From a virus (Duplodnaviria; Caudoviricetes), in IMG/VR virus record IMGVR_UViG_3300037153_000232, positions 1 through 56,922 of that record: 56,922 nucleotides of DNA; one strand, 5' to 3'. Each line of letters starts with the position of its first letter. Within the stretch, counting starts at the first letter, position 1. The position numbers and the translations under genes are program-made. The notes under the pieces were generated by a model. That model worked only from the letters and a program-made list of their open reading frames with translations, made no database searches and had not been told where the DNA came from. Of this stretch, positions 3 through 30,200 are shown piece by piece.

Positions 3-194
3 GGCGGCGTCAAGGATGGCACGTACATCACCGTGGCTGGCCACGGCTCCGACAACACCAAGGGGCACTCCAGTGTCGCGGCCTGGCGCTACGCGATGGG
101 GATGCCGTGGGCGATGACTCGCCACGAACTGGCCGAGGCCATCCCGCCCGCCTACACCACCTACATCGGGCGACAGATGCTCGCCTGGCTCTGA
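3..194 (+). CDS. C-terminal fragment of a phage DNA cytosine methyltransferase-like protein (5' truncated)
   Basis: Manual frame-3 translation ends ...AMGMPWAMTRHELAEAIPPAYTTYIGRQML. The EAIPPAYT motif is typical of phage C5-MTase C-termini. Confidence 0.65.
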   Translation, partial: GGVKDGTYITVAGHGSDNTKGHSSVAAWRYAMGMPWAMTRHELAEAIPPAYTTYIGRQMLAWL

Positions 195-204
195 AAGGAA
201 CTAC
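193..204 (+). promoter_or_regulatory. Conserved extended RBS motif GAAAGGAACTAC (copy 1)
   Basis: Identical 12-mer at 193, 2988, 8169, 17062 and 17499. Here it lies 3 nt before ATG 208. Confidence 0.8.
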
Positions 205-2621: not shown

Positions 2622-3004
2622 AGCCCTACTACTTGGCCAACCGAGCCTACCTCCAGGCGCTGCGCACGGCCACCCCGTGCGCGCACTGTGGAGGCGGACC
2701 AGTCGAGTGGCACAACCCCGAGCACGTCGAGCGACCGCACCGTCGCATCGGCAACATGACGGGCAGCGCCCGCGCCGCTATCGACGCCGAGCTTGCCCGC
2801 TGCACGCCACTGTGCCGCCGCTGCCACATGGCCGAAGACGGTCGGCTGCGCCGCCTGGTAACCGATAACCCGAACCCTGCTGGTATGCGCCGACCCGCGA
2901 AGGCCTGCGTCGAGTGCGGCTCGACCGCCAGCCAGTACCTGCGGCGTGGCCTGTGCGGACGCTGCTACGACCGACGACGACGATCTCGAAAGGAACTACC
3001 GTGA
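2618..3004 (+). CDS. HNH endonuclease-like zinc-finger protein
   Basis: CAHC...EWH...LCRRCH plus CVEC...CGRC. Confidence 0.6.
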   Translation: MKPYYLANRAYLQALRTATPCAHCGGGPVEWHNPEHVERPHRRIGNMTGSARAAIDAELARCTPLCRRCHMAEDGRLRRLVTDNPNPAGMRRPAKACVECGSTASQYLRRGLCGRCYDRRRRSRKELP

Positions 3005-3153
3005 ACACTGAACCACGCCACCTGTGCGGCCACCTCGCGCTGCACCCGACGCCCGAGACGCCGACGACCTACTGCATCAAGTGCGTCGCCTGGGGCTGCA
3101 CCACGCCGAACTGCCCGGGTCACCAGCGCTGGCCCGACCAGGCCGAGGCGTGA
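3001..3153 (+). CDS. Small Cys/His-rich hypothetical protein
   Basis: GTG 3001 directly after GAAAGGAACTAC (2988-2999). Confidence 0.55.
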   Translation: MNTEPRHLCGHLALHPTPETPTTYCIKCVAWGCTTPNCPGHQRWPDQAEA

Positions 3154-3641
3154 CCGTCGAAGCAGGCCTGGCCTTCGTCAAAGATGATGGCGGGCGTGCC
3201 CACGCGGGCTTCAAAGGCAGGACTGGCGATTGCTCCACGCGGGCCATCGCCATCGCGCTGGGCTTGCCCTACACCGAGGTCTACGACGCGCTCAACGCGC
3301 TGGGCAAGACCTGCCGCATCACCAAGCGCCACCCGAAGCAGTGCTACGCTCGCACGGGCGTGTGCGTCAAAGTGCTCCAGCGCTACCTGGCCAGCAAGGG
3401 CTGGACGTGGCACGCCACGATGGGCATCGGCACGGGCACGACCGTTCACCTGCGCGCTGGCGAGCTTCCCAAGAACGCCAGCTTCATCGCCAGGATCTCG
3501 AAGCACCTCGTGGCCATCGTGGACGGTGAGATCCACGACACGGGCGACCCGTCGATGGATGGGACGCGTGCCGTGTACGGCATCTGGTACCCGCGCTCCG
3601 AGCACCTGAAGTTCCGCCCGAGCGTGACGAGCGAGGCATGA
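3150..3641 (+). CDS. Conserved phage protein, possible papain-like (Cys/His) fold
   Basis: GDCSTRAIAIA...KHLVAIVDGEIHDT pattern. Confidence 0.55.
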   Translation: MTVEAGLAFVKDDGGRAHAGFKGRTGDCSTRAIAIALGLPYTEVYDALNALGKTCRITKRHPKQCYARTGVCVKVLQRYLASKGWTWHATMGIGTGTTVHLRAGELPKNASFIARISKHLVAIVDGEIHDTGDPSMDGTRAVYGIWYPRSEHLKFRPSVTSEA

Positions 3642-6721: not shown

Positions 6722-6734
6722 GCCTATAGTGGGA

Positions 6735-7391: not shown

Positions 7392-8102
7392 ATGCGATGG
7401 ACGCCCGACGTGACCTGGCAGGCGAGCAGCCTGGCCGACGACGACGAGATTGAGTGGCTGACGCTGAGCAAGAAGGACCGCAAGCGGCTGAAGAAGGCCG
7501 CGAAGCGCGCCCGCAAACAGGCCGCGTGGCAGCAGACGCTGCCGACGTTCGTGCGCACCACGGCCAACCATCGGCGCGAGGCGCAGGTGCGCCTGGAGGA
7601 CGTGCCCGAGACGCCCGGGCTGCGCGTGATCTTCACCGACTTCGACGGCGTGCTGAACCAGCATTCGAGCGGCAGCTACCTGCTGAAGCGCGAGCAGGTC
7701 GAGCGCCTGGACAGGCTTGCCCGCGAGACGCGGGCCGTGGTGGTGGTCACCTCGTGGTGGCGCTGGATCGGCGTCGAGCGGCTGCGCGAGGATCTGGCCA
7801 GCGCGGGCTTCCACGGTCGGCTGATCGGGCGCTCGCCGTGGCTGGGCGAAAACGAGCAGTGGGACGCCTGGGAGCGCGGCCAGGAGATCGACGCGGTGCT
7901 GCGCTATCTGGACGGCCGAGTCGAGAGCTTCGTCATCCTTGACGATCACAACCGTATGGGCAACCTGCTGCCGTATCTGGTGCAGACAACCGCCTCCGAG
8001 GGCCTGACCGAGGCCGATTGCGAGATGGCAAAGGGTATCCTGTTGAATCCAGTACCCCGTCAGCCGTTTGCGTCAGGTGTCTACGAGATGGTTGACGCCT
8101 GA
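7392..8102 (+). CDS. HAD-family phosphatase (Swiss-Army-Knife RNA-repair-type HAD)
   Basis: IFTDFDGVLN, VVVTSWWR, RGQEID and FVILDD motifs. Confidence 0.85.
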   Translation: MRWTPDVTWQASSLADDDEIEWLTLSKKDRKRLKKAAKRARKQAAWQQTLPTFVRTTANHRREAQVRLEDVPETPGLRVIFTDFDGVLNQHSSGSYLLKREQVERLDRLARETRAVVVVTSWWRWIGVERLREDLASAGFHGRLIGRSPWLGENEQWDAWERGQEIDAVLRYLDGRVESFVILDDHNRMGNLLPYLVQTTASEGLTEADCEMAKGILLNPVPRQPFASGVYEMVDA

Positions 8103-8121
8103 ATCAGCGCCAAGCTATACT
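8079..8121 (+). promoter_or_regulatory. Operator-like site and promoter
   Basis: GTCTAC-N6-GTTGAC; TTGACG(8092)-18 bp-TATACT(8116). Confidence 0.7.
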
Positions 8122-8183
8122 CTGTCGTGCCGCCCGAACGGGGCGGCGTTCGCGGCAACCAGCCGCAGGAAAGGAACTACATC

Positions 8184-9320
8184 GTGAAGCAGGGTCTGAC
8201 CCTTACACAGTTCGCGCAGACCATTCAGGAGCGCGACGCGGCCAAGGCCGACTACCTGGCACCCGTGCCGCTGATCGACGTCAACACCAATGGCCACACC
8301 AGCCTGGTGCTGCGCGACGTCGAGGACGCCAGCGGCAACGAGCTTGCGCCGCTGACCATCGGCAACACGGCGCACGGCCAGCTTGCCAGCTACCTGGGCG
8401 TGCCCAAGGCCTTCTACGACCACGTGCTGCGCAACACCAGCACGATCCGCGACCCGAACGACCCGACGCAGCCGCTGTACGACACGCTCATCAACGGCCT
8501 GCTGCGCGCCTGCCCGCCCGACGACGCCCGCCTGGTGCGCACGCTCAACGGCACGGCCCGCGCCTGGCTCAGCGACCGCTACCGCCAGATGGACAATCTG
8601 GAGATCCTGACGCGGCTGCTGCCCGTCATCCAGCAGTTGCCCGCCGTCAACTGGGAGCAGTCGAGCCTTCAGGTGACCGAGGACCGCATGTACCTGCAAC
8701 TGGTGGACACCAGCAAGCCCAAGGTCATCAAGAGCGGCCACCAGCGCGTGGACGACGTGCTCCAGCGCGGCGTGGTCATCACCAACAGCGAGGTCGGCCT
8801 GGGCAGCTTCGCGGTGCAGCCGCTGGTCTTCCGCCAGGTGTGCTCCAACGGCCTGGTCATCACCGAGTACGCGCAGCGCCGCTTCCACGTCGGCGGGCGC
8901 AACAGCGGCGACGCGGGCATCGTCTGGCAGTCGGATACGCAGAAGGCGCGCAACGAGACGACGATCCTCGAAATGCGTGACCTGATGAAGATGGCCATGT
9001 CGGACGAGTTCCTGAACAAGATCGCGGCGCGGGCGCAGGACGCGGCCGACCTGCCGATCAAGGGTGCGCAACTGGAGCCAGTGGTCAAGAACGTGACCGA
9101 GCGCTTCCGACTCAACGGCGACGAGCGCGACGCGATGTTCAACCACCTCGTGGAGGGCGGCGACCTGAGCCTGTGGGGCCTGGTCAACAGCATCACCCGG
9201 GCGGCGCAGGACGTCGAGAGCTACGACCGCAGCGTCGAGCTACAGGCCATCGGCGGCAACATCCTGGCCTTGCCCAAGCACGACATCACCGCGCTGCTGA
9301 GCGAGGTGTCGCCTAACTGA
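8184..9320 (+). CDS. DUF932/DUF945-family phage protein
   Basis: LSDRYRQMDN, ITNSEVGLGS, QVCSNGL and LWGLVNSIT motifs; GAAAGGAACTAC RBS at 8169. Confidence 0.75.
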   Translation: MKQGLTLTQFAQTIQERDAAKADYLAPVPLIDVNTNGHTSLVLRDVEDASGNELAPLTIGNTAHGQLASYLGVPKAFYDHVLRNTSTIRDPNDPTQPLYDTLINGLLRACPPDDARLVRTLNGTARAWLSDRYRQMDNLEILTRLLPVIQQLPAVNWEQSSLQVTEDRMYLQLVDTSKPKVIKSGHQRVDDVLQRGVVITNSEVGLGSFAVQPLVFRQVCSNGLVITEYAQRRFHVGGRNSGDAGIVWQSDTQKARNETTILEMRDLMKMAMSDEFLNKIAARAQDAADLPIKGAQLEPVVKNVTERFRLNGDERDAMFNHLVEGGDLSLWGLVNSITRAAQDVESYDRSVELQAIGGNILALPKHDITALLSEVSPN

Positions 9321-16134: not shown

Positions 16135-16581
16135 ATGGCTGACCAGCCACTCGGCACCAAGCGACGCTGGTCGGCCGAACCGTTGTTCCCCGACCTGTTC
16201 CCCGATCTCGAACCGCAGGTGATCGAGGTCACCAAGCCGATGCCGCACGTCAAGCTGCCCGAAACCAACGGCACCGAGCTACGCGACGCGGGCATGGCCA
16301 GCGTGTGGGACAACACGCCCGAGAACTGGCGCGTGGTGGCCATGACGCTGCTGTTTCAGCTTGCTCAGCGCCAGGCCGAGGTGACCACCGACGACCTGTG
16401 GAAGGTGCTGCCGCCGCTGCCTGCGGGCGCGCACCCGAACGTGATCGGTGGGCTGTGGATGGAGGCCGTCCGCCAGCACTGGCTGAAGCGCACCGACCGC
16501 ATGGTGATCTCCGAGCGCCAGAACGCCCACGCCCGGCGTGTGCCCGTGTACCGCTCGCTGGTCTGGAAGGGCCAGCCATGA
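16135..16581 (+). CDS. Hypothetical protein, possible winged helix
   Basis: TTDDLW...NVIGG...AHARRVPVYRS; GGAGG SD. Confidence 0.55.
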   Translation: MADQPLGTKRRWSAEPLFPDLFPDLEPQVIEVTKPMPHVKLPETNGTELRDAGMASVWDNTPENWRVVAMTLLFQLAQRQAEVTTDDLWKVLPPLPAGAHPNVIGGLWMEAVRQHWLKRTDRMVISERQNAHARRVPVYRSLVWKGQP

Positions 16582-16760
16582 ACCACGAGCGTGACGCAGA
16601 GCGCGCCGTGCGCCTGCTGCCGCACCGCTTCGGGCAGCGCGGCTACGTGATCGAGTTCCGCGACGGCGACGGCTTGACCTGGCGCATGACGCTGACAGAG
16701 CAGCAGTACCGGGGCTGGTTCGGCTGGCTTCGCCCGAGCTTCAGGTGGCAGACCGCGTGA
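16578..16760 (+). CDS. Hypothetical protein
   Basis: ATGA-coupled short ORF. Confidence 0.45.
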   Translation: MNHERDAERAVRLLPHRFGQRGYVIEFRDGDGLTWRMTLTEQQYRGWFGWLRPSFRWQTA

Positions 16761-17008
16761 GCGAGACAGAGCGCGTCGCACGTGTTCTGCACGAGCGCTT
16801 GGAGCGGTTGGAGCCTCCGCGAGAGTGCGCGTGCGACCCACCCGGGTCTGGCGAGGAACACTGCACGGGGCACTGTTTCCTGCGCGCCGAGATCGCCCGC
16901 TTGCTGCGCATCGAGACGGCCGCTCGCAACCTCGACACACACAGCACCGAGGGCTACGCGACGCTGGTCAGCTACCTGATCCGCCTGCACGAGGCGCTCG
17001 CCTCGTGA
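16757..17008 (+). CDS. Hypothetical Cys-rich protein
   Basis: CAC...HCTGHC; coupled start. Confidence 0.5.
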   Translation: MSETERVARVLHERLERLEPPRECACDPPGSGEEHCTGHCFLRAEIARLLRIETAARNLDTHSTEGYATLVSYLIRLHEALAS

Positions 17009-17076
17009 GCTTGACGCTGATCCCACGCATCGCCTAGCCTGTCAGCGAGTTGGTTTACTCTGAAAGGAACTACATC

Positions 17077-17397
17077 GTGAGCCTCTCCCGCGACCAGTAC
17101 ATCGACAGAATCTACCCCGAGGATCTCGTGAAGAAGCCCGACGCCTGGTGCGAGCGCTACATGGTCGGCACCACCGAGGCCGCGCTGCGCAAGCCGCGCA
17201 CGCGCATCAAGGCCGCGCTGAAGCGCCGCGTGCTGGGGATGCCCTACCGCGACCACGCCTCGCACGCCTACTACGTGAAGCTGGGCCAGGGCGTGACCGT
17301 CAGGAACTGGATGAACGCGCTCGCAGCCAAGCGCATCCTCCAGCAGGTCGGCTACGGCTCGACGCCGGGAGAGTCACAGAAGCGTCTCGACGCCTAG
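17077..17397 (+). CDS. Basic hypothetical protein
   Basis: TTGACG(17011)-18 bp-TAGCCT promoter and GAAAGGAACTAC RBS (17062). Confidence 0.65.
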   Translation: MSLSRDQYIDRIYPEDLVKKPDAWCERYMVGTTEAALRKPRTRIKAALKRRVLGMPYRDHASHAYYVKLGQGVTVRNWMNALAAKRILQQVGYGSTPGESQKRLDA

Positions 17398-17476
17398 CGG
17401 CTGAGCGAGCGACGAGCGTAGGCTGGACGAATCTTCGGCCCGCACCGAGGATGACTGCGCCAGGTGGCGGACAACC

Positions 17477-17550
17477 AAAAGCCCGCCACTTGTGCCGCGA
17501 AAGGAACTACTCAAACTCGGCTGGCGGGCTTTTGAAAGGCGAAAAATCCT
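17477..17550 (-). ncRNA. Candidate antisense small RNA in the replication-gene leader, loop GTAGTTCCTTTC
   Basis: Minus-strand TTGCGC(17584-79)-16 bp-TACTAT(17562-57); bidirectional terminator-like stem AAAAGCCCGCCA/TGGCGGGCTTTT at 17477-17533. Confidence 0.5.
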
Positions 17551-18402
17551 GTGTCAATAGTACCCGATTCCCGGGGGCGCGCAAGTGTCGCGTCTGTAAA
17601 CACTGCTGACGACGACTGGACGCCAGAGCAGAAGCTGCGCGGTGCCCAGCACCTGGCCGAGCACGGGTCGGCTATGGCCACCATCCCGACGTCGATCTTG
17701 CTCGATCCGACGCTGGGCGACGCGCTGAAGGTGGTGCTGATGACCATGAGCACCGTGGCCGACCACGACGGCTTCCTGACCGTCAGCCAGGCCGAGCTTG
17801 GCCGACGCCTGGGCGTGAGCCGCCAGGCGATGTGCGCGCACATGCAAGAGGGCGTCGAAGCTGGCCTTATCGAGCACGTCGGGGCGACCTGGCGCGTGCG
17901 CTGGATCGCAGCCATGTGTCAAGCAGGGGTTGACAACCGCAACCCGGGGTTGACACCTGACCGTCAACCCCAACTTGACACTGTTAACTCGGGGTTGACG
18001 TCCTCACGCGCACGCGTTAAGTCCCCCACTACTACTACGTCTACCAAGTCCCTTGTTGTTCCTCTTACTGATTTAGAGAGAGACAAGGTGCGCGAGCGCT
18101 ACCTGGGCAAGCCGTTCCCGTCGGTCCAGCTAGAGGAGCAGATCGACCTGGCGCTCAGCCATCCAGCGGCCAAGAAGTACCCCACCAACCAGATCGGCTA
18201 CGTGATGAACTGGATGCGCCGCACCGCGCAGGAGCGCCGCGAGCACGAGGCCCGAATGGCCACCGAGCAGGCGCGCCTGGAGCGTGCCAGGACGCCGTAT
18301 GGTGGCGCGGTGACCGAGCCGACGCTGAAGTTCCGCAACATCCGCGACGTCGTGGGCCAGCCGTCAGAGGAGCATCTGGAGAACGCGAGATTCGCCTCGT
18401 GA
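17551..18402 (+). CDS. Phage replication initiator (N-terminal HTH, lambda O-like architecture)
   Basis: VSQAELGRRLGVSRQAM HTH, internal iterons, directly upstream of DnaB. Confidence 0.75.
   Translation: MSIVPDSRGRASVASVNTADDDWTPEQKLRGAQHLAEHGSAMATIPTSILLDPTLGDALKVVLMTMSTVADHDGFLTVSQAELGRRLGVSRQAMCAHMQEGVEAGLIEHVGATWRVRWIAAMCQAGVDNRNPGLTPDRQPQLDTVNSGLTSSRARVKSPTTTTSTKSLVVPLTDLERDKVRERYLGKPFPSVQLEEQIDLALSHPAAKKYPTNQIGYVMNWMRRTAQERREHEARMATEQARLERARTPYGGAVTEPTLKFRNIRDVVGQPSEEHLENARFAS
17917..18000. repeat. Four tandem ~19-bp palindromic iterons (putative replication origin)
   Basis: TGTCAAGCAGGGGTTGACA, CGCAACCCGGGGTTGACA, CGTCAACCCCAACTTGACA, TGTTAACTCGGGGTTGACG; an AT-richer tract follows. 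Confidence 0.8.
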
Positions 18403-19937
18403 CTACCAACGGGGTGTTCCGCACCGACGCCGATCTCGAAGCCGAGACACCCGACCGAGAAGACCGATCCACGCCGCCGCATTCCGACCAGGCTGAGGTG
18501 GCCGTGCTGGGGTCGGTGCTGAAAAACCCGTATGCCGTGCGTGAAGTCGTGGACATCGTGGAGCCACGCGACTTCTACTCGACGCGCCACCAGGCCATCT
18601 GGAAGGCGGTACAGGCGCTGGAAAGCGAGGGCACGCCCATCGACTACCACCTGCTGGGCGACAAGCTGCACCAGCAGGGCACCTACGACGCGGCGGGCGG
18701 GCTGCTGTACCTGAGCGAGATCAACCTGGCTACGCCGACGTCCGCGTTCATCACGCACTACGCCAAGATCGTGCTGCGCGCCAGCCTGCACCGCCGCCTG
18801 ATCTCGCTGAGCCAGGGCCTGGCAGAAGCCGCCTGGCTCGACCGCAAGTCACCCGAAGACCTGATGGCCGAGATGGAAAAGCGCATGGCCAAGCTCAACC
18901 TGCGCGCTGTGGAGGACGACGGGGTGGACATGGACGCGGCCACCGACGAGGCACTGAGCGCGCTCGACATCCAGATCAAGGCCTTCGCGGAGCACGACCA
19001 CACCAAGTCCGAGTACATGGCGGGCTACAAGACGGGGCTGATCGACCTCGACCAGGCGCTGCTGGGCATGAAGCCAGGCGACCTGATCTACCTGGCGGCG
19101 CGCACGTCGGTGGGCAAGAGCATCCTGGCGCAGCAGATCGCCATGCACGTCGCCAACCATCGCGGCGCGGTGTACTTCGCCAGCCTGGAGATGACCCGCG
19201 CCAAGCTGATCCATCGCGCCATCACCATGACCACGGGCATCCCGCGCCACGAGCTTGCCCGGGGCAACCTGTCCGATCAAGATCGGGCGGCGGTCGAGCG
19301 CTTCGCGGATCGACACCGTCAACTGCGGATGCGCTGGGACACCACCTCGCGCACCGTCGAGCAGATCCAGCGTCGGGCGCTGCGATGGGCGGACCAGATC
19401 GGGGAGCCGCTGGCGCTGGTGATCGTGGACTACGTGCAACTGCTGCGCGACGCGGCAGGACCGCGCTCGAACCGCTACGAGGACGTCAGCCTGGCCAGCC
19501 ACAACCTGAAGGAGATGGCAGGGCGACTGGGCTGCACCGTGTTCGCGCCCGCCCAGGTCAGCCGTGACGTACTGAAACGCAAGAGCAAGATGCCCGACCT
19601 GTCCGACCTGCGCGAGAGCGGTGATCTGGAGCAGGACGCCGACATCGTGCTGGCGCTCGACCGCGACGACTACCACGACAACACCGTGACCGACCAACGC
19701 GCCACGCTGGGCGTGCTCAAAGCCCGCGACCTGGCAGCCGACCGTGGTCGGGGCACGATGATTCGCCTGGTCTGGTTGCCGAAATTCGAGCGCTACGGCA
19801 ACGCCGAACGCGACCCGAACAACGTGGTGCCCTTCCGACCGCGACCACTGCTGCATGACGACCTGCAAGCGCAGATCACCGACGCCGCACCGTCCGACGA
19901 GCCGAGCACGCCCGATGGAGATCCACTGCCGTGGTAG
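18399..19937 (+). CDS. dnaB: Replicative DNA helicase DnaB-like
   Basis: PPHSDQAEVAVLG, AARTSVGKS, SLEM, VIVDYVQL and DLRESGDLEQDAD. Confidence 0.95.
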   Translation: MTTNGVFRTDADLEAETPDREDRSTPPHSDQAEVAVLGSVLKNPYAVREVVDIVEPRDFYSTRHQAIWKAVQALESEGTPIDYHLLGDKLHQQGTYDAAGGLLYLSEINLATPTSAFITHYAKIVLRASLHRRLISLSQGLAEAAWLDRKSPEDLMAEMEKRMAKLNLRAVEDDGVDMDAATDEALSALDIQIKAFAEHDHTKSEYMAGYKTGLIDLDQALLGMKPGDLIYLAARTSVGKSILAQQIAMHVANHRGAVYFASLEMTRAKLIHRAITMTTGIPRHELARGNLSDQDRAAVERFADRHRQLRMRWDTTSRTVEQIQRRALRWADQIGEPLALVIVDYVQLLRDAAGPRSNRYEDVSLASHNLKEMAGRLGCTVFAPAQVSRDVLKRKSKMPDLSDLRESGDLEQDADIVLALDRDDYHDNTVTDQRATLGVLKARDLAADRGRGTMIRLVWLPKFERYGNAERDPNNVVPFRPRPLLHDDLQAQITDAAPSDEPSTPDGDPLPW

Positions 19938-27290: not shown

Positions 27291-30200
27291 GTGGAATGGT
27301 GGCTCGTGCCCGCGTTGTGGTTCGGCATGGGCCTGGGCCTGCTGGGCAGCATGTACTCCGAGATGGACCGACCGACGCCGCGTCTGGCCGACGCGCTGGT
27401 GATGCTGACCGTCGGGCCGTTCGTCATGGGCTGGCTGTGCGCAGCGCGAGCGATACGTGCCCGACGCCGCTGAGGAGCCGACCGCGACCTGCTGGACGGG
27501 CGCGCAGGTGTTCTGCGATGACGACGAGTGCCACGGTCGCGTGGACTACGTCGAGGACGTCGATCACGACGACGGCTCGTGCGAGGTCTTCAAGTGCCGC
27601 GCCTGCGGCAAACGTGTGCATGTGGAGCTACCCGACTGAATGACGCTGACCAATCTTGGACCTGGCGCGCCCGTCGCGCCCGCCAACCCGAGCGTGTGCT
27701 CGTGCTGCCAGGACGCCCGCGCCGAGGTGCGCCAGAACATCGTCGCCTGGTGGACGCCCTCGCCTGGCTGGGGCTACGGGCCTGACGGCCGCTTGATCTC
27801 GCTGTGTGAAGAGTGCATCAAGACTTTGCAGTTCTTCGTGGAGATCGGCACGACCAAGCCCAACGTGGTGGCCTGACAACCAGATTGTTGTCTGAATATG
27901 CGCGTCAACGTACACTTCGGGCGTGCATAGCCACCGACGCCGCACGCTGCGCGTCCATCTCGACCGCGACGGGCAACCTATCCAGCCGTCCACGATCTGC
28001 TGCTGCTGCGAGGACAGCGCAGGCAACCGCATCGCTTCCTTCCGCCGCGCCAAGGACAACGGCAACTTCGAGGAGACGCCGCGTGTGCCGCTGGCGAGCG
28101 GTCACTGCGGCTTCTGTGGCCGCAGCGTGAAGGAGCGTGCCGCGTGAGCGAGCCAGCGCTGATGTCCGCCAAGACGCTGGTCGCGCTGCTGCGCCAGTTG
28201 GCACGCCATATCGAGGCCGAGGACAGCTTCGAGGGCAGCTTCGAGTACCACGCCAGCACCAGGCAGGTCGGCTTCTACGAGGTCAACGCTGCCTACCGCA
28301 TCGGCAACAGCGACGGCGCGCAGGGCGGCATGATGCTCATCCAGGGCAACAGGTGACCCGCGCCGACGACATCGACCGCGAACTGGCGGCGCTCAACACG
28401 CTGATCTCGCGCCTGCACGCCAGCATGAGCCGCACTGACCGCGAGTGCATGGGCCTGCACGCTGGCCTGTCCGAGGCGGTGCATCGGCTGCGCGGCTACG
28501 GCGCGGACGTCTCCGACCTGCTGCTGGTGCTGGACGACCCGGGCAGCGCGCCGCTTACCTACCCGCGTGAACGCTTCCGCAAGCTCAGGACGCTCGAAGA
28601 AAACGCCGAGGAGTACGTCCGCATCTTCAAGCCCGAAGACTGCTGATGGCACGCCGCTCATCCGACTGTGCCTGGTGCACTGCAACGGGCCATACCACGG
28701 GGTGGACGCTATGACGCTGCTGGACGAACGACCCGTCAATCCCGAGCCGCCGACACACTGCCGAAGCTGCGGTGCCTGGATCTGGTGGCGCATCAACCCG
28801 TCGGGCAAGAAGCAGCCCTTCGACTACGACAAGGAGCACGAGCAGGCGCTCGACATGCCGCATCACGCCACCTGCCCGCAGGGACGCCAGTGGCAGAGAA
28901 CCAGATAAGCGTGCTGGTGGGCGAAGCGCCGCCAGGCACGTTCTGCAAGCCGTGCGGCAAGCCCGCCAGCGCTCGTCTCCAGCGTCTGGACCACGCCGAC
29001 GACGACATCCTGCTGTGCAGCGCGTGCTTCGAGCGGTTCAAGGACTTCACCAGCGACAAGGCGCTGGGCGTGACGCAGTACAAGGACGAGGCGATGGACT
29101 GGTGAAGCGGCCCACGGTCGGACACCTCGTGGTGCCGTACATGGTGGACGAGCGCGTGCAGCCCATCGACTTCAAGCTGGTGCATCCAGGCCACGTTACC
29201 AAGTGCGCCATGCAGCGCAGGTGCGGCATCTGCGGCAAGCCCATCCGAGGCTACCTGGCGTTCTGCGGCCCCGACGACGGGCGCTCGTGCTTCGGTGACC
29301 CGTGGATGCACCCCGAGTGCGGCAAGCTGGCCATGCAGCAGTGCCCCTTCCTGGCCGACCGTCGCGGCTGGCGCGAACCCGCCGATGGCAAGCTGAGCCA
29401 GGAGATGCTCGACCGCTACACGCACAACATGGCGCTCTACCAGGCTCCCAGCGGGCGGGCCTTCCGCGACGCCTTCGGCCACTGGCACTTCGAGGCGCTG
29501 GGCACGCTGAGGCCGCTGCGATGAGCGGCGTGCCGATGCAATTCGACCTGAGTTCTCTACTCGACCGCAACGCGTATAGCGGCGGCACCAAGCTCATCAT
29601 CGCGGGCACGATGCAATTGGTGCACAAGGACGACGGCATCGACATGGAACCCGTCTGGACGGCCGAAGTGTTCGAGCGCCCCAACCAGCGCAAGTGCACC
29701 ATTCGCCTCGTCGGGGATTCACCGAAGGCGCTGTTCGACCTGCTGAGCGCGCTGGCCGACGCGGGCGAGGTGGAGATCAAGCACGAGGCCGACGACGATG
29801 ACGACTGAGCCGCACGGCGAGCAGGTCTACATGACCATCCCCGTCACCGAGTTCGAGATGCTGCACACCCGCGCCAGCCACTACCTGGCGCAACGCGACT
29901 TCCTGTGGACGGCGCTGGAGCGGGTCAAGGCCGAGGGCGGCAAGGTATGCGCGGAGTTCGAGTTCTGCCAGCACGTGGCGTGCATGTCGAGCTACGCCGC
30001 GTGGAGCATCGCGGACGCCGCGCTGAAGGGAGAGACGCCCGAAAGTGCTAACGCCAAAGCTATCGCGGAGCGTAGACGCGAGACGGGTGATCTGTGAGCC
30101 TGGCCGCATATGACAGACATGATCCAGGCACGCCCCTTGCTGGCCGCGTGCATGAACTGCGGCCAGCGCGTGCGCGTGCCTGCCGAAACCGACCTGGGCG

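What the first reader, a model, noticed from the sequence alone, without database searches (positions are those of the whole stretch)
17419..17584. Second RNA element: orphan copy of the GAAAGGAACTAC RBS motif in a hairpin loop under an antisense promoter
Seen: the 12-mer GAAAGGAACTAC serves as RBS for four genes (193, 2988, 8169, 17062). The fifth copy (17499-17510) has no start codon after it and sits inside the 12-bp stem AAAAGCCCGCCA/TGGCGGGCTTTT, which has a T-run on both strands. A minus-strand TTGCGC-16-TACTAT promoter would give a ~75-nt RNA with looped GUAGUUCCUUUC. That RNA is complementary to all four RBSs and antisense to the initiator leader. Inference: one RNA couples replication control (ctRNA-like) to silencing of a gene set. 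Alternatively, the sense RNA from TAGGCT (~17419) is a decoy for an RNA-binding repressor. With the 6735 element this suggests a two-channel, RBS-addressed regulatory network.
Basis: partly seen in the sequence, partly recalled or inferred. Interest (0 to 1): 0.8.

Follow-up and report, generated by a model that had tools for sequence, protein, structure and literature searches.

The report
Antisense RNA unit before phage initiator
Just upstream of a phage replication-initiator gene lies a conserved hairpin that, together with a promoter on the opposite strand, probably makes a small antisense RNA covering the initiator's ribosome-binding site, and its loop also matches the ribosome-binding sites of four other genes.

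Summary
GAAAGGAACTAC occurs 5 times, all on the + strand (chance 0.03). Four copies lie 1-3 nt before a start codon. The fifth (17499-17510) has none for 21 nt and sits in the loop of a 13-bp hairpin.

New here: the initiator (wHTH protein with iterons inside the gene) starts at GTG 17551, not at the called ATG 17674. The antisense promoter therefore lies in its codons 3-12.

Under a relaxed pattern, that promoter is the only minus-strand promoter-like site in all 56.9 kb. It recurs at the homologous place in the only two relatives with upstream DNA. In all three, the T-run after the hairpin is longer on the minus strand (7/8/8 vs 4/5/3).

I read this as an ~80-nt cis-antisense RNA, like a plasmid ctRNA or lambda pO/oop, that masks the initiator's RBS.

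Trans-silencing of the four RBS copies is plausible but unproven. The loop is 15/16 identical in relative L125. The more distant relative has the hairpin without the motif.

No RNA data exist. The earlier notes seen all concern this same record. The scan had not found this on other DNA.

The parts
17416..17424 (+). Conserved box GCGTAGGCT. It has no TTG-type -35.
   Evidence: Identical in L125. Not caught by either promoter pattern.
17435..17449 (+). Conserved box A, TCGGCCCGCACCGAG. It can form a small hairpin of its own or pair with the 3' arm of the big hairpin (an anti-terminator-like alternative).
   Evidence: 15 of 15 identical in L125. It pairs with the 3' arm in the leader MFE of both the window and L125.
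17461..17492 (+). Alternative stem 17461-17470 / 17483-17492 (10 nt, 90% complementary). It excludes the big hairpin.
   Evidence: Shuffled upstream sequence disrupts the hairpin in only 1 of 300 cases for the window, but in 57 of 300 for L125.
17476..17534 (.). Hairpin. Outer stem 13 bp (17476-17488 / 17522-17534), 5-nt bulge, inner stem 17494-17497 / 17518-17521, open apical region. T-runs on both sides, richer on the minus strand.
   Evidence: In 4 of 13 outer pairs both sides have changed in at least one relative.
17499..17510 (+). Fifth, orphan copy of GAAAGGAACTAC in the loop. On the antisense RNA it reads as the complement of the other four copies.
   Evidence: It is exact in L125, and the 16-nt loop is 15 of 16 identical.
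17534..17539 (+). GAAAGG, the initiator's own RBS, 11 nt before GTG 17551.
   Evidence: L125 and L123 have GAAAGG 9 nt before their start codons.
17557..17584 (-). Antisense sigma-70-like promoter TTGCGC (17584-17579), 16-nt spacer, TACTAT (17562-17557). It lies inside initiator codons 3-12.
   Evidence: It is the only minus-strand match in the window, where shuffles give 4.8. Homologous sites exist in L125 and G001.
17473..17552 (-). Predicted antisense RNA of about 80 nt. It has a single-stranded 5' tail complementary to the initiator start codon and RBS, then the terminator hairpin with an open loop. Both ends are inferred, not measured.
   Evidence: Folds. The same architecture appears in L125 (96 nt) and L123 (68 nt).
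17551..18402 (+). Replication initiator-like gene (winged-helix, MarR_2 match). The corrected start is GTG 17551. Four iterons lie at 17920-18001 inside the gene. DnaB follows at 18399-19937.
193..204 (+). 12-mer copy 1, RBS of the 58-aa gene at 208-384. It overlaps the stop codon of the upstream ORF.
2988..2999 (+). 12-mer copy 2, RBS of the 50-aa Cys-rich gene at 3001-3153. It lies inside the last codons of the upstream gene.
8169..8180 (+). 12-mer copy 3, RBS of the DUF932 gene at 8184-9320. It lies in a 5' UTR after the promoter TTGACG-18-TATACT (8092-8121).
17062..17073 (+). 12-mer copy 4, RBS of the 106-aa gene at 17077-17397. It follows the promoter TTGACG-18-TAGCCT (17011-17040).

Best explanation
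The hairpin is the terminator of a small cis-antisense RNA of about 80 nt. Transcription starts from a sigma-70-like promoter inside the first dozen codons of the replication-initiator gene and runs leftward.

The RNA's single-stranded 5' tail is the exact complement of the initiator's start codon and GAAAGG RBS. Pairing would therefore block initiator translation, and may expose the duplex to cleavage. Synthesis of the initiator, and probably of the translationally coupled DnaB, would then be tied to the level of the antisense RNA. This is how plasmid countertranscripts work. The layout matches the lambda pO/oop promoter at the 5' end of gene O.

The open loop carrying the complement of GAAAGGAACTAC would make first contact with the matching loop of the sense leader. 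It could also pair with the four identical RBS copies.

Shown by sequence: the geometry, the folds, the conservation and the strand statistics. Inferred: that the RNA is made, where it begins and ends, and what it does.
For: 1. Promoter. TTGNNN-N16-18-TANNNT occurs 12 times on the + strand (shuffle mean 2.1) and once on the minus strand (shuffle mean 4.8; 5 of 100 shuffles gave 1 or fewer). That one site is 17584-17557.

2. Conservation. The same pattern with the same 16-nt spacer lies at the homologous position in L125, where it is the only minus-strand match in 3.5 kb. It also lies there in G001/L123, as 1 of 2 minus-strand matches in 70 kb. The initiators are only 34-39% identical.

3. Terminator polarity. 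T count in the 10 nt after the stem is 7, 8, 8 on the minus strand against 4, 5, 3 on the plus strand, for window, L125 and L123. Every confident gene nearby is on the + strand.

4. Fold. All three predicted RNAs fold as a single-stranded tail carrying the anti-RBS, followed by a terminal hairpin. The loop is unpaired in the ensemble.

5. Outer stem. Both sides have changed in 4 of 13 pairs.

6. Initiator start. GTG 17551 is supported by in-frame conservation, an identical 12-codon spacing to a conserved motif, and a GAAAGG RBS in all three relatives.

7. Precedent. [quoted passage not shown]
Against: - No transcript evidence. The only run listed is DNA.
- There are only two relatives with upstream DNA, and they are not independent of the window.
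- The promoter matches just 7-8 of 12 consensus positions and fails the strict scan.
- The promoter lies in coding sequence. Part of its conservation could reflect the protein's N-terminus.
- In the window the minus-strand T-run is only four contiguous T.
- The host is unknown. The only clues are an Rpf-type transglycosylase domain and 67% GC, so promoter and terminator rules are assumed.
- No Rfam family matches.
Confidence: 0.55

Rival explanations
1. Sense-strand riboregulator. The intergenic region is a two-state leader or attenuator of the initiator mRNA. The big hairpin (terminator-like state) competes with pairing of box A to its 3' arm and of 17461-17470 to its 5' arm (read-through state). 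The exposed 12-mer is a landing site for a protein or for the 30S subunit that also reads the four RBS copies (operator or decoy logic). No functional antisense RNA is needed.
For: The two states are nearly isoenergetic in the window (-48.0 vs -47.3 kcal/mol), and the alternative state is the MFE in L125 as well. Only 1 of 300 shuffles of the upstream 46 nt displaces the hairpin in the window. Box A is 15 of 15 identical in L125. The bulge and its upstream partner differ between the window and L125 yet still pair. The 12-mer has sharp, identical borders at all five sites.
Against: The shuffle test is not significant in L125 (57 of 300) or L123 (156 of 300). This model does not explain the conserved minus-strand promoter or the richer minus-strand T-run. 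No candidate RNA-binding protein was found, and there is no CsrA-family match in the record, which is 71% complete. The + strand T-run is short.
Confidence: 0.2
2. Transcriptional interference only. The antisense promoter acts like lambda pO by colliding with rightward transcription into the initiator gene and origin. The short RNA and its loop sequence are incidental.
For: The position relative to an initiator gene that holds its own iterons is the same as in lambda. The passages read report that pO lowers pR-driven transcription and that extra oop RNA did not change lambda plasmid copy number (PMC3985674).
Against: Here the RNA covers the initiator's RBS and start codon, so an RNA-level effect is hard to avoid. 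The loop is more conserved than its stems between the window and L125: 15 of 16 in the loop against changed stem and bulge. That argues for selection on the RNA sequence.
Confidence: 0.15
3. Ordinary bidirectional terminator between two transcription units. The loop copy of the motif is a relic of a duplicated RBS and has no function.
For: A GC-rich perfect stem is flanked by an A-run and a T-run. The relative G001 has the hairpin without the motif.
Against: The 33-nt interior is far from a terminator loop, and the terminator scan finds nothing here. The initiator has no conserved promoter of its own after the hairpin: the + strand site overlaps the start codon and is absent from L123. A strong + strand terminator would therefore shut off replication genes. 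The exact 12-mer is kept in L125 while flanking stem and bulge positions changed.
Confidence: 0.1

Closest known systems
Lambda pO promoter / oop RNA
   Same: A leftward promoter sits at the very 5' end of an initiator gene that holds its own iterons. It is convergent with the rightward transcription that feeds the replication genes, and it gives a short terminated antisense RNA (passages of PMC3985674; table in PMC5415839).
   Different: oop targets the 3' end of the upstream cII mRNA. Here the predicted RNA ends 76 nt short of the upstream gene (stop at 17397) and instead covers the initiator's own RBS and start codon. There is no sequence or Rfam similarity.
Plasmid countertranscripts (R1 CopA, pIP501 RNAIII, pT181 type)
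   Same: A small, constitutively terminated antisense RNA to the leader of the rep mRNA, with a stem-loop that presents a recognition loop. It controls initiator synthesis (review PMC5415839, passages).
   Different: This one is on a phage, and the promoter lies inside the initiator ORF. The RNA masks the RBS directly rather than acting through a leader peptide, a pseudoknot or attenuation. The loop is identical to RBSs elsewhere in the genome.
Start-associated sequences (SAS) of cluster K mycobacteriophages
   Same: An asymmetric 12-13-nt motif in one orientation, a few nt before start codons of a subset of non-structural genes. It extends beyond the rRNA-pairing core and has an unknown partner ('either RNA or protein'). 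In four phages one extra copy is not at a gene start (passages of PMC3203893). The role is still called unknown in 2024 and 2025 (passages of PMC11373665 and PMC12699233).
   Different: The motif sequence differs. There are only 4 gene-linked copies against 13-19. The orphan copy here has the same orientation but sits under an antisense promoter, whereas in cluster K it is inverted.
P22 sar RNA
   Same: A small phage antisense RNA that inhibits anti-repression (one line in review PMC5415839).
   Different: That sar covers the ant RBS is my recollection, not read here. The target is an antirepressor, not a replication initiator.

Membership tests
Cis-antisense / countertranscript control of a replication initiator | Promoter on the strand opposite to the rep leader | tested here: met
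   Prediction only. It is the single minus-strand match in 56.9 kb and is kept in 2 of 2 relatives with upstream DNA.
Cis-antisense / countertranscript control of a replication initiator | Terminated short RNA with a stem-loop presenting an open loop | tested here: met
   Folds of the three predicted RNAs. Loop unpaired in the ensemble. Minus-strand T counts 7/8/8.
Cis-antisense / countertranscript control of a replication initiator | Complementarity to the rep mRNA leader or RBS | tested here: met
   By geometry, 17473-17552 includes the RBS (17534-17539) and GTG 17551.
Cis-antisense / countertranscript control of a replication initiator | The transcript exists and changes initiator level or copy number | not testable with these tools
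   No RNA holder is listed.
Lambda oop/pO | Leftward promoter at the 5' end of an iteron-containing initiator gene | tested here: met
   Lambda layout from PMC3985674.
Lambda oop/pO | RNA overlaps the 3' end of the upstream (cII) gene | tested here: not met
   The predicted 3' end is about 17473. The upstream gene stops at 17397.
Lambda oop/pO | Sequence or structure homology | tested here: not met
   No Rfam match at gathering score. The best E-value in the region is 0.044, to an unrelated lncRNA model.
Start-associated sequences (cluster K type) | Asymmetric motif in one orientation, within a few nt of start codons | tested here: met
   5 of 5 copies are on the + strand. 4 of 5 lie 1-3 nt before a start codon.
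Start-associated sequences (cluster K type) | Confined to non-structural genes | tested here: met
   All copies lie between 193 and 17510. Terminase, capsid and the other structural genes lie beyond 32 kb.
Start-associated sequences (cluster K type) | Consensus GGGATAGGAGCCC | tested here: not met
   The motif here is different. The consensus is taken from PMC3203893.
Intrinsic (bidirectional) terminator | GC-rich stem, short loop, U-run | tested here: inconclusive
   The stem is met. The loop criterion is not met (33 nt between arms), and 0 terminators are reported in 16500-18500. The U-run is good only on the minus strand.
CsrA/Rsm-type decoy RNA | A cognate CsrA-family protein is available | tested here: inconclusive
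   No PF02599 match in the record. The record is 71% complete and the host is unknown.

The most novel reading that the evidence does not exclude
The antisense RNA has two jobs. In cis it throttles the replication initiator. Through its loop it acts in trans as a private anti-Shine-Dalgarno for the small class of genes that carry the extended RBS GAAAGGAACTAC. One RNA would then tie replication control to translation of a gene set addressed by its RBS.

The wider form of this reading is that start-associated RBS motifs in phages have RNA partners displayed in hairpin loops. In cluster K1 mycobacteriophage Anaya, the single inverted SAS lies in the apical loop of a conserved, strongly folding intergenic hairpin.
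Probability: 0.25. Interest if true: 0.8.

Novelty: new variant of a known kind. Interest (0 to 1): 0.6.

Why it matters
Antisense control of initiator synthesis is textbook for plasmids. For phages the textbook case is lambda's pO/oop, whose role in replication is still debated. This looks like a second lineage of that arrangement, found in an uncultured high-GC soil phage. Here the RNA overlaps the initiator's RBS directly, which gives a cleaner test of what such a promoter is for.

The identity between the RNA's loop and four RBSs also offers a concrete, testable partner for phage 'start-associated' RBS motifs. Their function has been open since 2011 and was still called unknown in the 2024 and 2025 passages read.

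The work also corrects the initiator's start codon. In addition it shows that promoter-like sites on the non-coding strand of this phage are fewer than shuffles give (1 against a mean of 4.8).

Tried and rejected
**Searches for relatives**
- Single-protein scans of IMG/VR with the initiator, the upstream gene and DnaB found nothing.
- Pattern scans with the motif plus a start codon, the loop and the conserved box gave only chance or unrelated low-GC hits.
- Alignment-based scans gave L123/L160 (one 70-kb record), L124, L125 and L126. L124 lacks upstream DNA. L126 has the same sequence as L123 over the 820 nt compared.
- Two closer initiator homologues, P0005 and P0006 on contigs of 69,101 and 15,731 nt, could not be fetched.
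- The INPHARED phage collection has no relative.

**RNA evidence:** no RNA holder is listed.

**Rfam:** nothing.

**Small-ORF reading of the fifth copy: rejected.** The TTG 21 nt downstream opens 25 codons in the window but only 7 in L125. The minus-strand ORF that starts in the loop has no start codon in L125.

**The + strand promoter TTGAAA-18-AATAGT: rejected** as the initiator promoter. It overlaps the start codon supported by three relatives, and L123 has no -35 there.

**Loop-RBS covariation in G001.** Its loop words recur only inside coding sequence. There is no regulon there.

**Whole-RNA duplex ranking: uninformative,** because the GC-rich stems pair with anything. With the 20-nt loop alone, the four RBS copies rank 2nd to 5th after the cis site (-19.9 to -21.7 kcal/mol; background -9.0, sd 2.6). 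The next site is at -19.1, and the ranking follows from the identity itself.

**Cluster K tangent.** The loop does not covary with the SAS in Ekdilam: the SAS is unchanged while the loop has two mismatches. Keshu's loop is different. An anti-SAS RNA is therefore not universal there.

**Literature.** The search for SAS plus antisense or small RNA was badly posed and shows nothing either way. The ZoeJ search was also unhelpful. Supplements were not opened.

**Energy artefact.** The 'enforced' energy for L123 comes from a forced mismatch and is not used.
Full report
**What the window is.** It is a complete IMG/VR virus record of 56,922 nt, rated 71% complete, with 67% GC. A third-position-GC screen puts nearly all confident ORFs on the + strand. 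Around the finding lie a Rad52-like gene, small genes of unknown function, a winged-helix (MarR_2) protein and a DnaB helicase. Four 17-nt iterons spaced 20, 25 and 20 nt apart lie inside the winged-helix gene at 17920-18001. That gene is therefore a lambda-O-like initiator carrying its own origin. An Rpf-type transglycosylase domain and the GC content hint at an actinobacterial host, but this was not tested further.

**The observation.** GAAAGGAACTAC occurs five times, always on the + strand, with no extra match at one mismatch and 0.03 expected. Four copies end 1-3 nt before ATG 208, GTG 3001, GTG 8184 and GTG 17077. After the fifth copy the first canonical start is 21 nt away. The motif is not the phage's usual Shine-Dalgarno. 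AGGAGG occurs 38 times on the + strand, while GAAAGG occurs only seven times: the five copies, the initiator's RBS at 17534, and one coding site. The fifth copy lies in the open top of a hairpin with a perfect 13-bp outer stem (17476-17488 / 17522-17534) and a 4-bp inner stem. The minus-strand TTGCGC-16-TACTAT is at 17584-17557.

**Where the initiator starts.** The gene caller's product (P0004, 242 aa) starts at ATG 17674. In relative L125 that codon is not a start. Coding conservation, with indels in multiples of three and synonymous differences, runs up to GTG 17551. L125 starts with TTG and L123 with GTG. In all three the start lies exactly 12 codons before a conserved Ala/Ser-Ser, and GAAAGG lies 9-11 nt upstream (read by eye from those outputs). 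The antisense promoter is therefore inside codons 3-12. The + strand 'promoter' overlaps the start codon and is not kept in L123.

**Relatives.** Only three other loci could be reached. L125 is a 3.5-kb contig with DnaB 81% and initiator 39% identical. L124 has DnaB 84% identical but no upstream DNA.

**Evidence for an antisense transcription unit.**
- The relaxed pattern TTGNNN-N16-18-TANNNT is enriched on the + strand: 12 observed against 2.1 in shuffles. Many of these look like real promoters, for example TTGACG-18-TATACT at 8092.
- The same pattern is depleted on the minus strand: 1 observed against 4.8, with 5 of 100 shuffles at or below 1. The single minus-strand site is the one under study.
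- L125 has its only minus-strand match at the homologous place (TTGAAC-16-TACACT). In G001, one of two minus-strand matches is homologous (TTGCAC-16-TAGACT).
- The 10 nt after the GC stem hold 7, 8 and 8 T on the minus strand and 4, 5 and 3 on the plus strand.
- The three predicted RNAs (80, 96 and 68 nt) share one plan: a single-stranded 5' tail with the complement of the initiator's RBS, then the terminal hairpin.
- The outer stem keeps pairing through changes on both sides in 4 of 13 pairs.

Weak points: there are three related sequences only, the promoter matches 7-8 of 12 consensus positions, it lies in coding sequence, the window has a short contiguous T-run, and there are no RNA data.

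**The loop.** Between the window and L125 the 16-nt loop is 15 of 16 identical and the 12-mer is exact. The bulge (5 vs 7 nt) and parts of both stems differ. This points to selection on the loop sequence itself. In L125 the initiator's own RBS carries 10 of the 12 motif bases.

In G001 the hairpin is present but its loop is unrelated, and loop words recur only inside coding sequence. G001 still uses GAAAGGA-type RBSs at four early genes. One of them is the 73%-identical homologue of the window's DUF932 target, whose RBS is the 12-mer minus one A.

So the special RBS class and the cis-antisense unit both look ancestral. The loop copy looks like a later addition in the window/L125 branch. That fits a regulator that acquired trans targets, but it is one contrast and not a test.

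With the loop alone as query, the four RBSs rank directly after the cis site in the genome. This follows from the sequence identity, and the next-best site is close in energy.

**The sense leader.** I found that 17461-17470 can pair with the hairpin's 5' arm and bulge. I also found that the fully conserved box 17435-17449 can pair with its 3' arm. The alternative state is the MFE in both the window (-48.0 vs -47.3 kcal/mol) and L125. Shuffling the upstream 46 nt displaces the hairpin in 1 of 300 cases in the window, but in 57 of 300 in L125 and 156 of 300 in L123. A two-state leader is therefore likely in the window and unproven as a conserved feature. It may set how accessible the target is to the antisense RNA, or it may be an attenuator in its own right (rival 1).

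**Comparison with known systems.**
- *Lambda pO/oop.* The layout is lambda's: a leftward promoter at the first codons of an iteron-bearing initiator gene. pO lowers rightward transcription and affects replication (passages of PMC3985674). The predicted target differs: the initiator's RBS here, against the cII 3' end in lambda.
- *Plasmid countertranscripts.* The mechanism resembles these (review PMC5415839).
- *Cluster K start-associated sequences.* The four RBS copies resemble SAS, whose partner, 'either RNA or protein', is still unknown (PMC3203893, PMC11373665 and PMC12699233; passages only).

**The cluster K lead.** I followed the SAS comparison further. In phage Anaya the one inverted SAS lies in the 385-nt gap between genes 96 and 97. 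On the gene strand it forms the 10-nt apical loop of a hairpin in a region that folds far better than shuffles (z = -3.99). That region is present in 138 cluster K records, and its stems show paired changes by eye in a 9-phage alignment. Against a general rule: Ekdilam keeps the SAS consensus at 15 gene starts (11 exact, 4 with one mismatch), while its loop has two mismatches to it, and Keshu's loop is unrelated.

**Verdict.** The antisense RNA unit is well supported by comparative sequence evidence and is most likely a cis regulator of the initiator (0.55). The RBS-addressed regulon is an attractive extension that remains unproven (0.25). I rate it a new variant of a known kind.

Noticed in passing
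A TATAGT box at 6725-6730 is followed by a 97-nt stretch that folds into three hairpins and ends in a strong + strand terminator with a T-run (MFE -55.9 kcal/mol, z = -3.61, 0 of 200 shuffles as good). The first hairpin's loop holds a CUCC run, and GGAGG-type RBSs are the common class in this phage. It is a candidate sense small RNA.
   Followed up: partly
window 17551-17673: The initiator gene is probably called 41 codons too short: ATG 17674 against GTG 17551. L125 and L123 conserve the N-terminal extension, and each has a start codon at the same place.
   Followed up: yes
whole window, both strands: The promoter-like pattern TTGNNN-N16-18-TANNNT occurs 12 times on the + strand (shuffles 2.1) and once on the minus strand (shuffles 4.8). 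The related 70-kb record shows 8 and 2. Spurious antisense promoters look selected against in these one-directional genomes.
   Followed up: partly
L161 (Mycobacterium phage Anaya, JF704106) 29850-29900; alignment A5: The single inverted start-associated sequence of this cluster K1 phage is the apical loop of a conserved intergenic hairpin on the gene strand. The region is found in 138 cluster K records. The loop deviates in Ekdilam and Amgine and is unrelated in Keshu, although Ekdilam keeps the SAS consensus at 15 gene starts.
   Followed up: partly
window 2900-3200: The 12-mer at 2988 lies inside the last codons of an upstream Cys/His-rich gene whose TGA overlaps GTG 3001. The 50-aa product of 3001-3153 is Cys-rich with near-100% third-position GC. 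The next gene starts in another frame around 3150.
   Followed up: partly
L123 7530-8700 (G001 67230-68381): The more distant relative carries two tandem initiator-like winged-helix genes (two tblastn matches to the window's initiator) where the window has one.
   Followed up: no
window 8092-8183 and G001 58667-58739: The DUF932 gene keeps the same upstream architecture in both phages: a TTGACG-18-TA..CT promoter, a GC hairpin in the 5' UTR, and then the special RBS (GAAAGGAACTAC in the window, GAAAGGACTAC in G001).
   Followed up: no
window 17920-18001: Four iterons of about 17 nt (core GGGGTTGAC, one of them inverted) spaced 20, 25 and 20 nt lie inside the initiator gene. In the relatives this part of the protein is a repeated Gln-Pro-x-Val-Asp segment, so the iterons are co-encoded with a peptide repeat.
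   Followed up: partly
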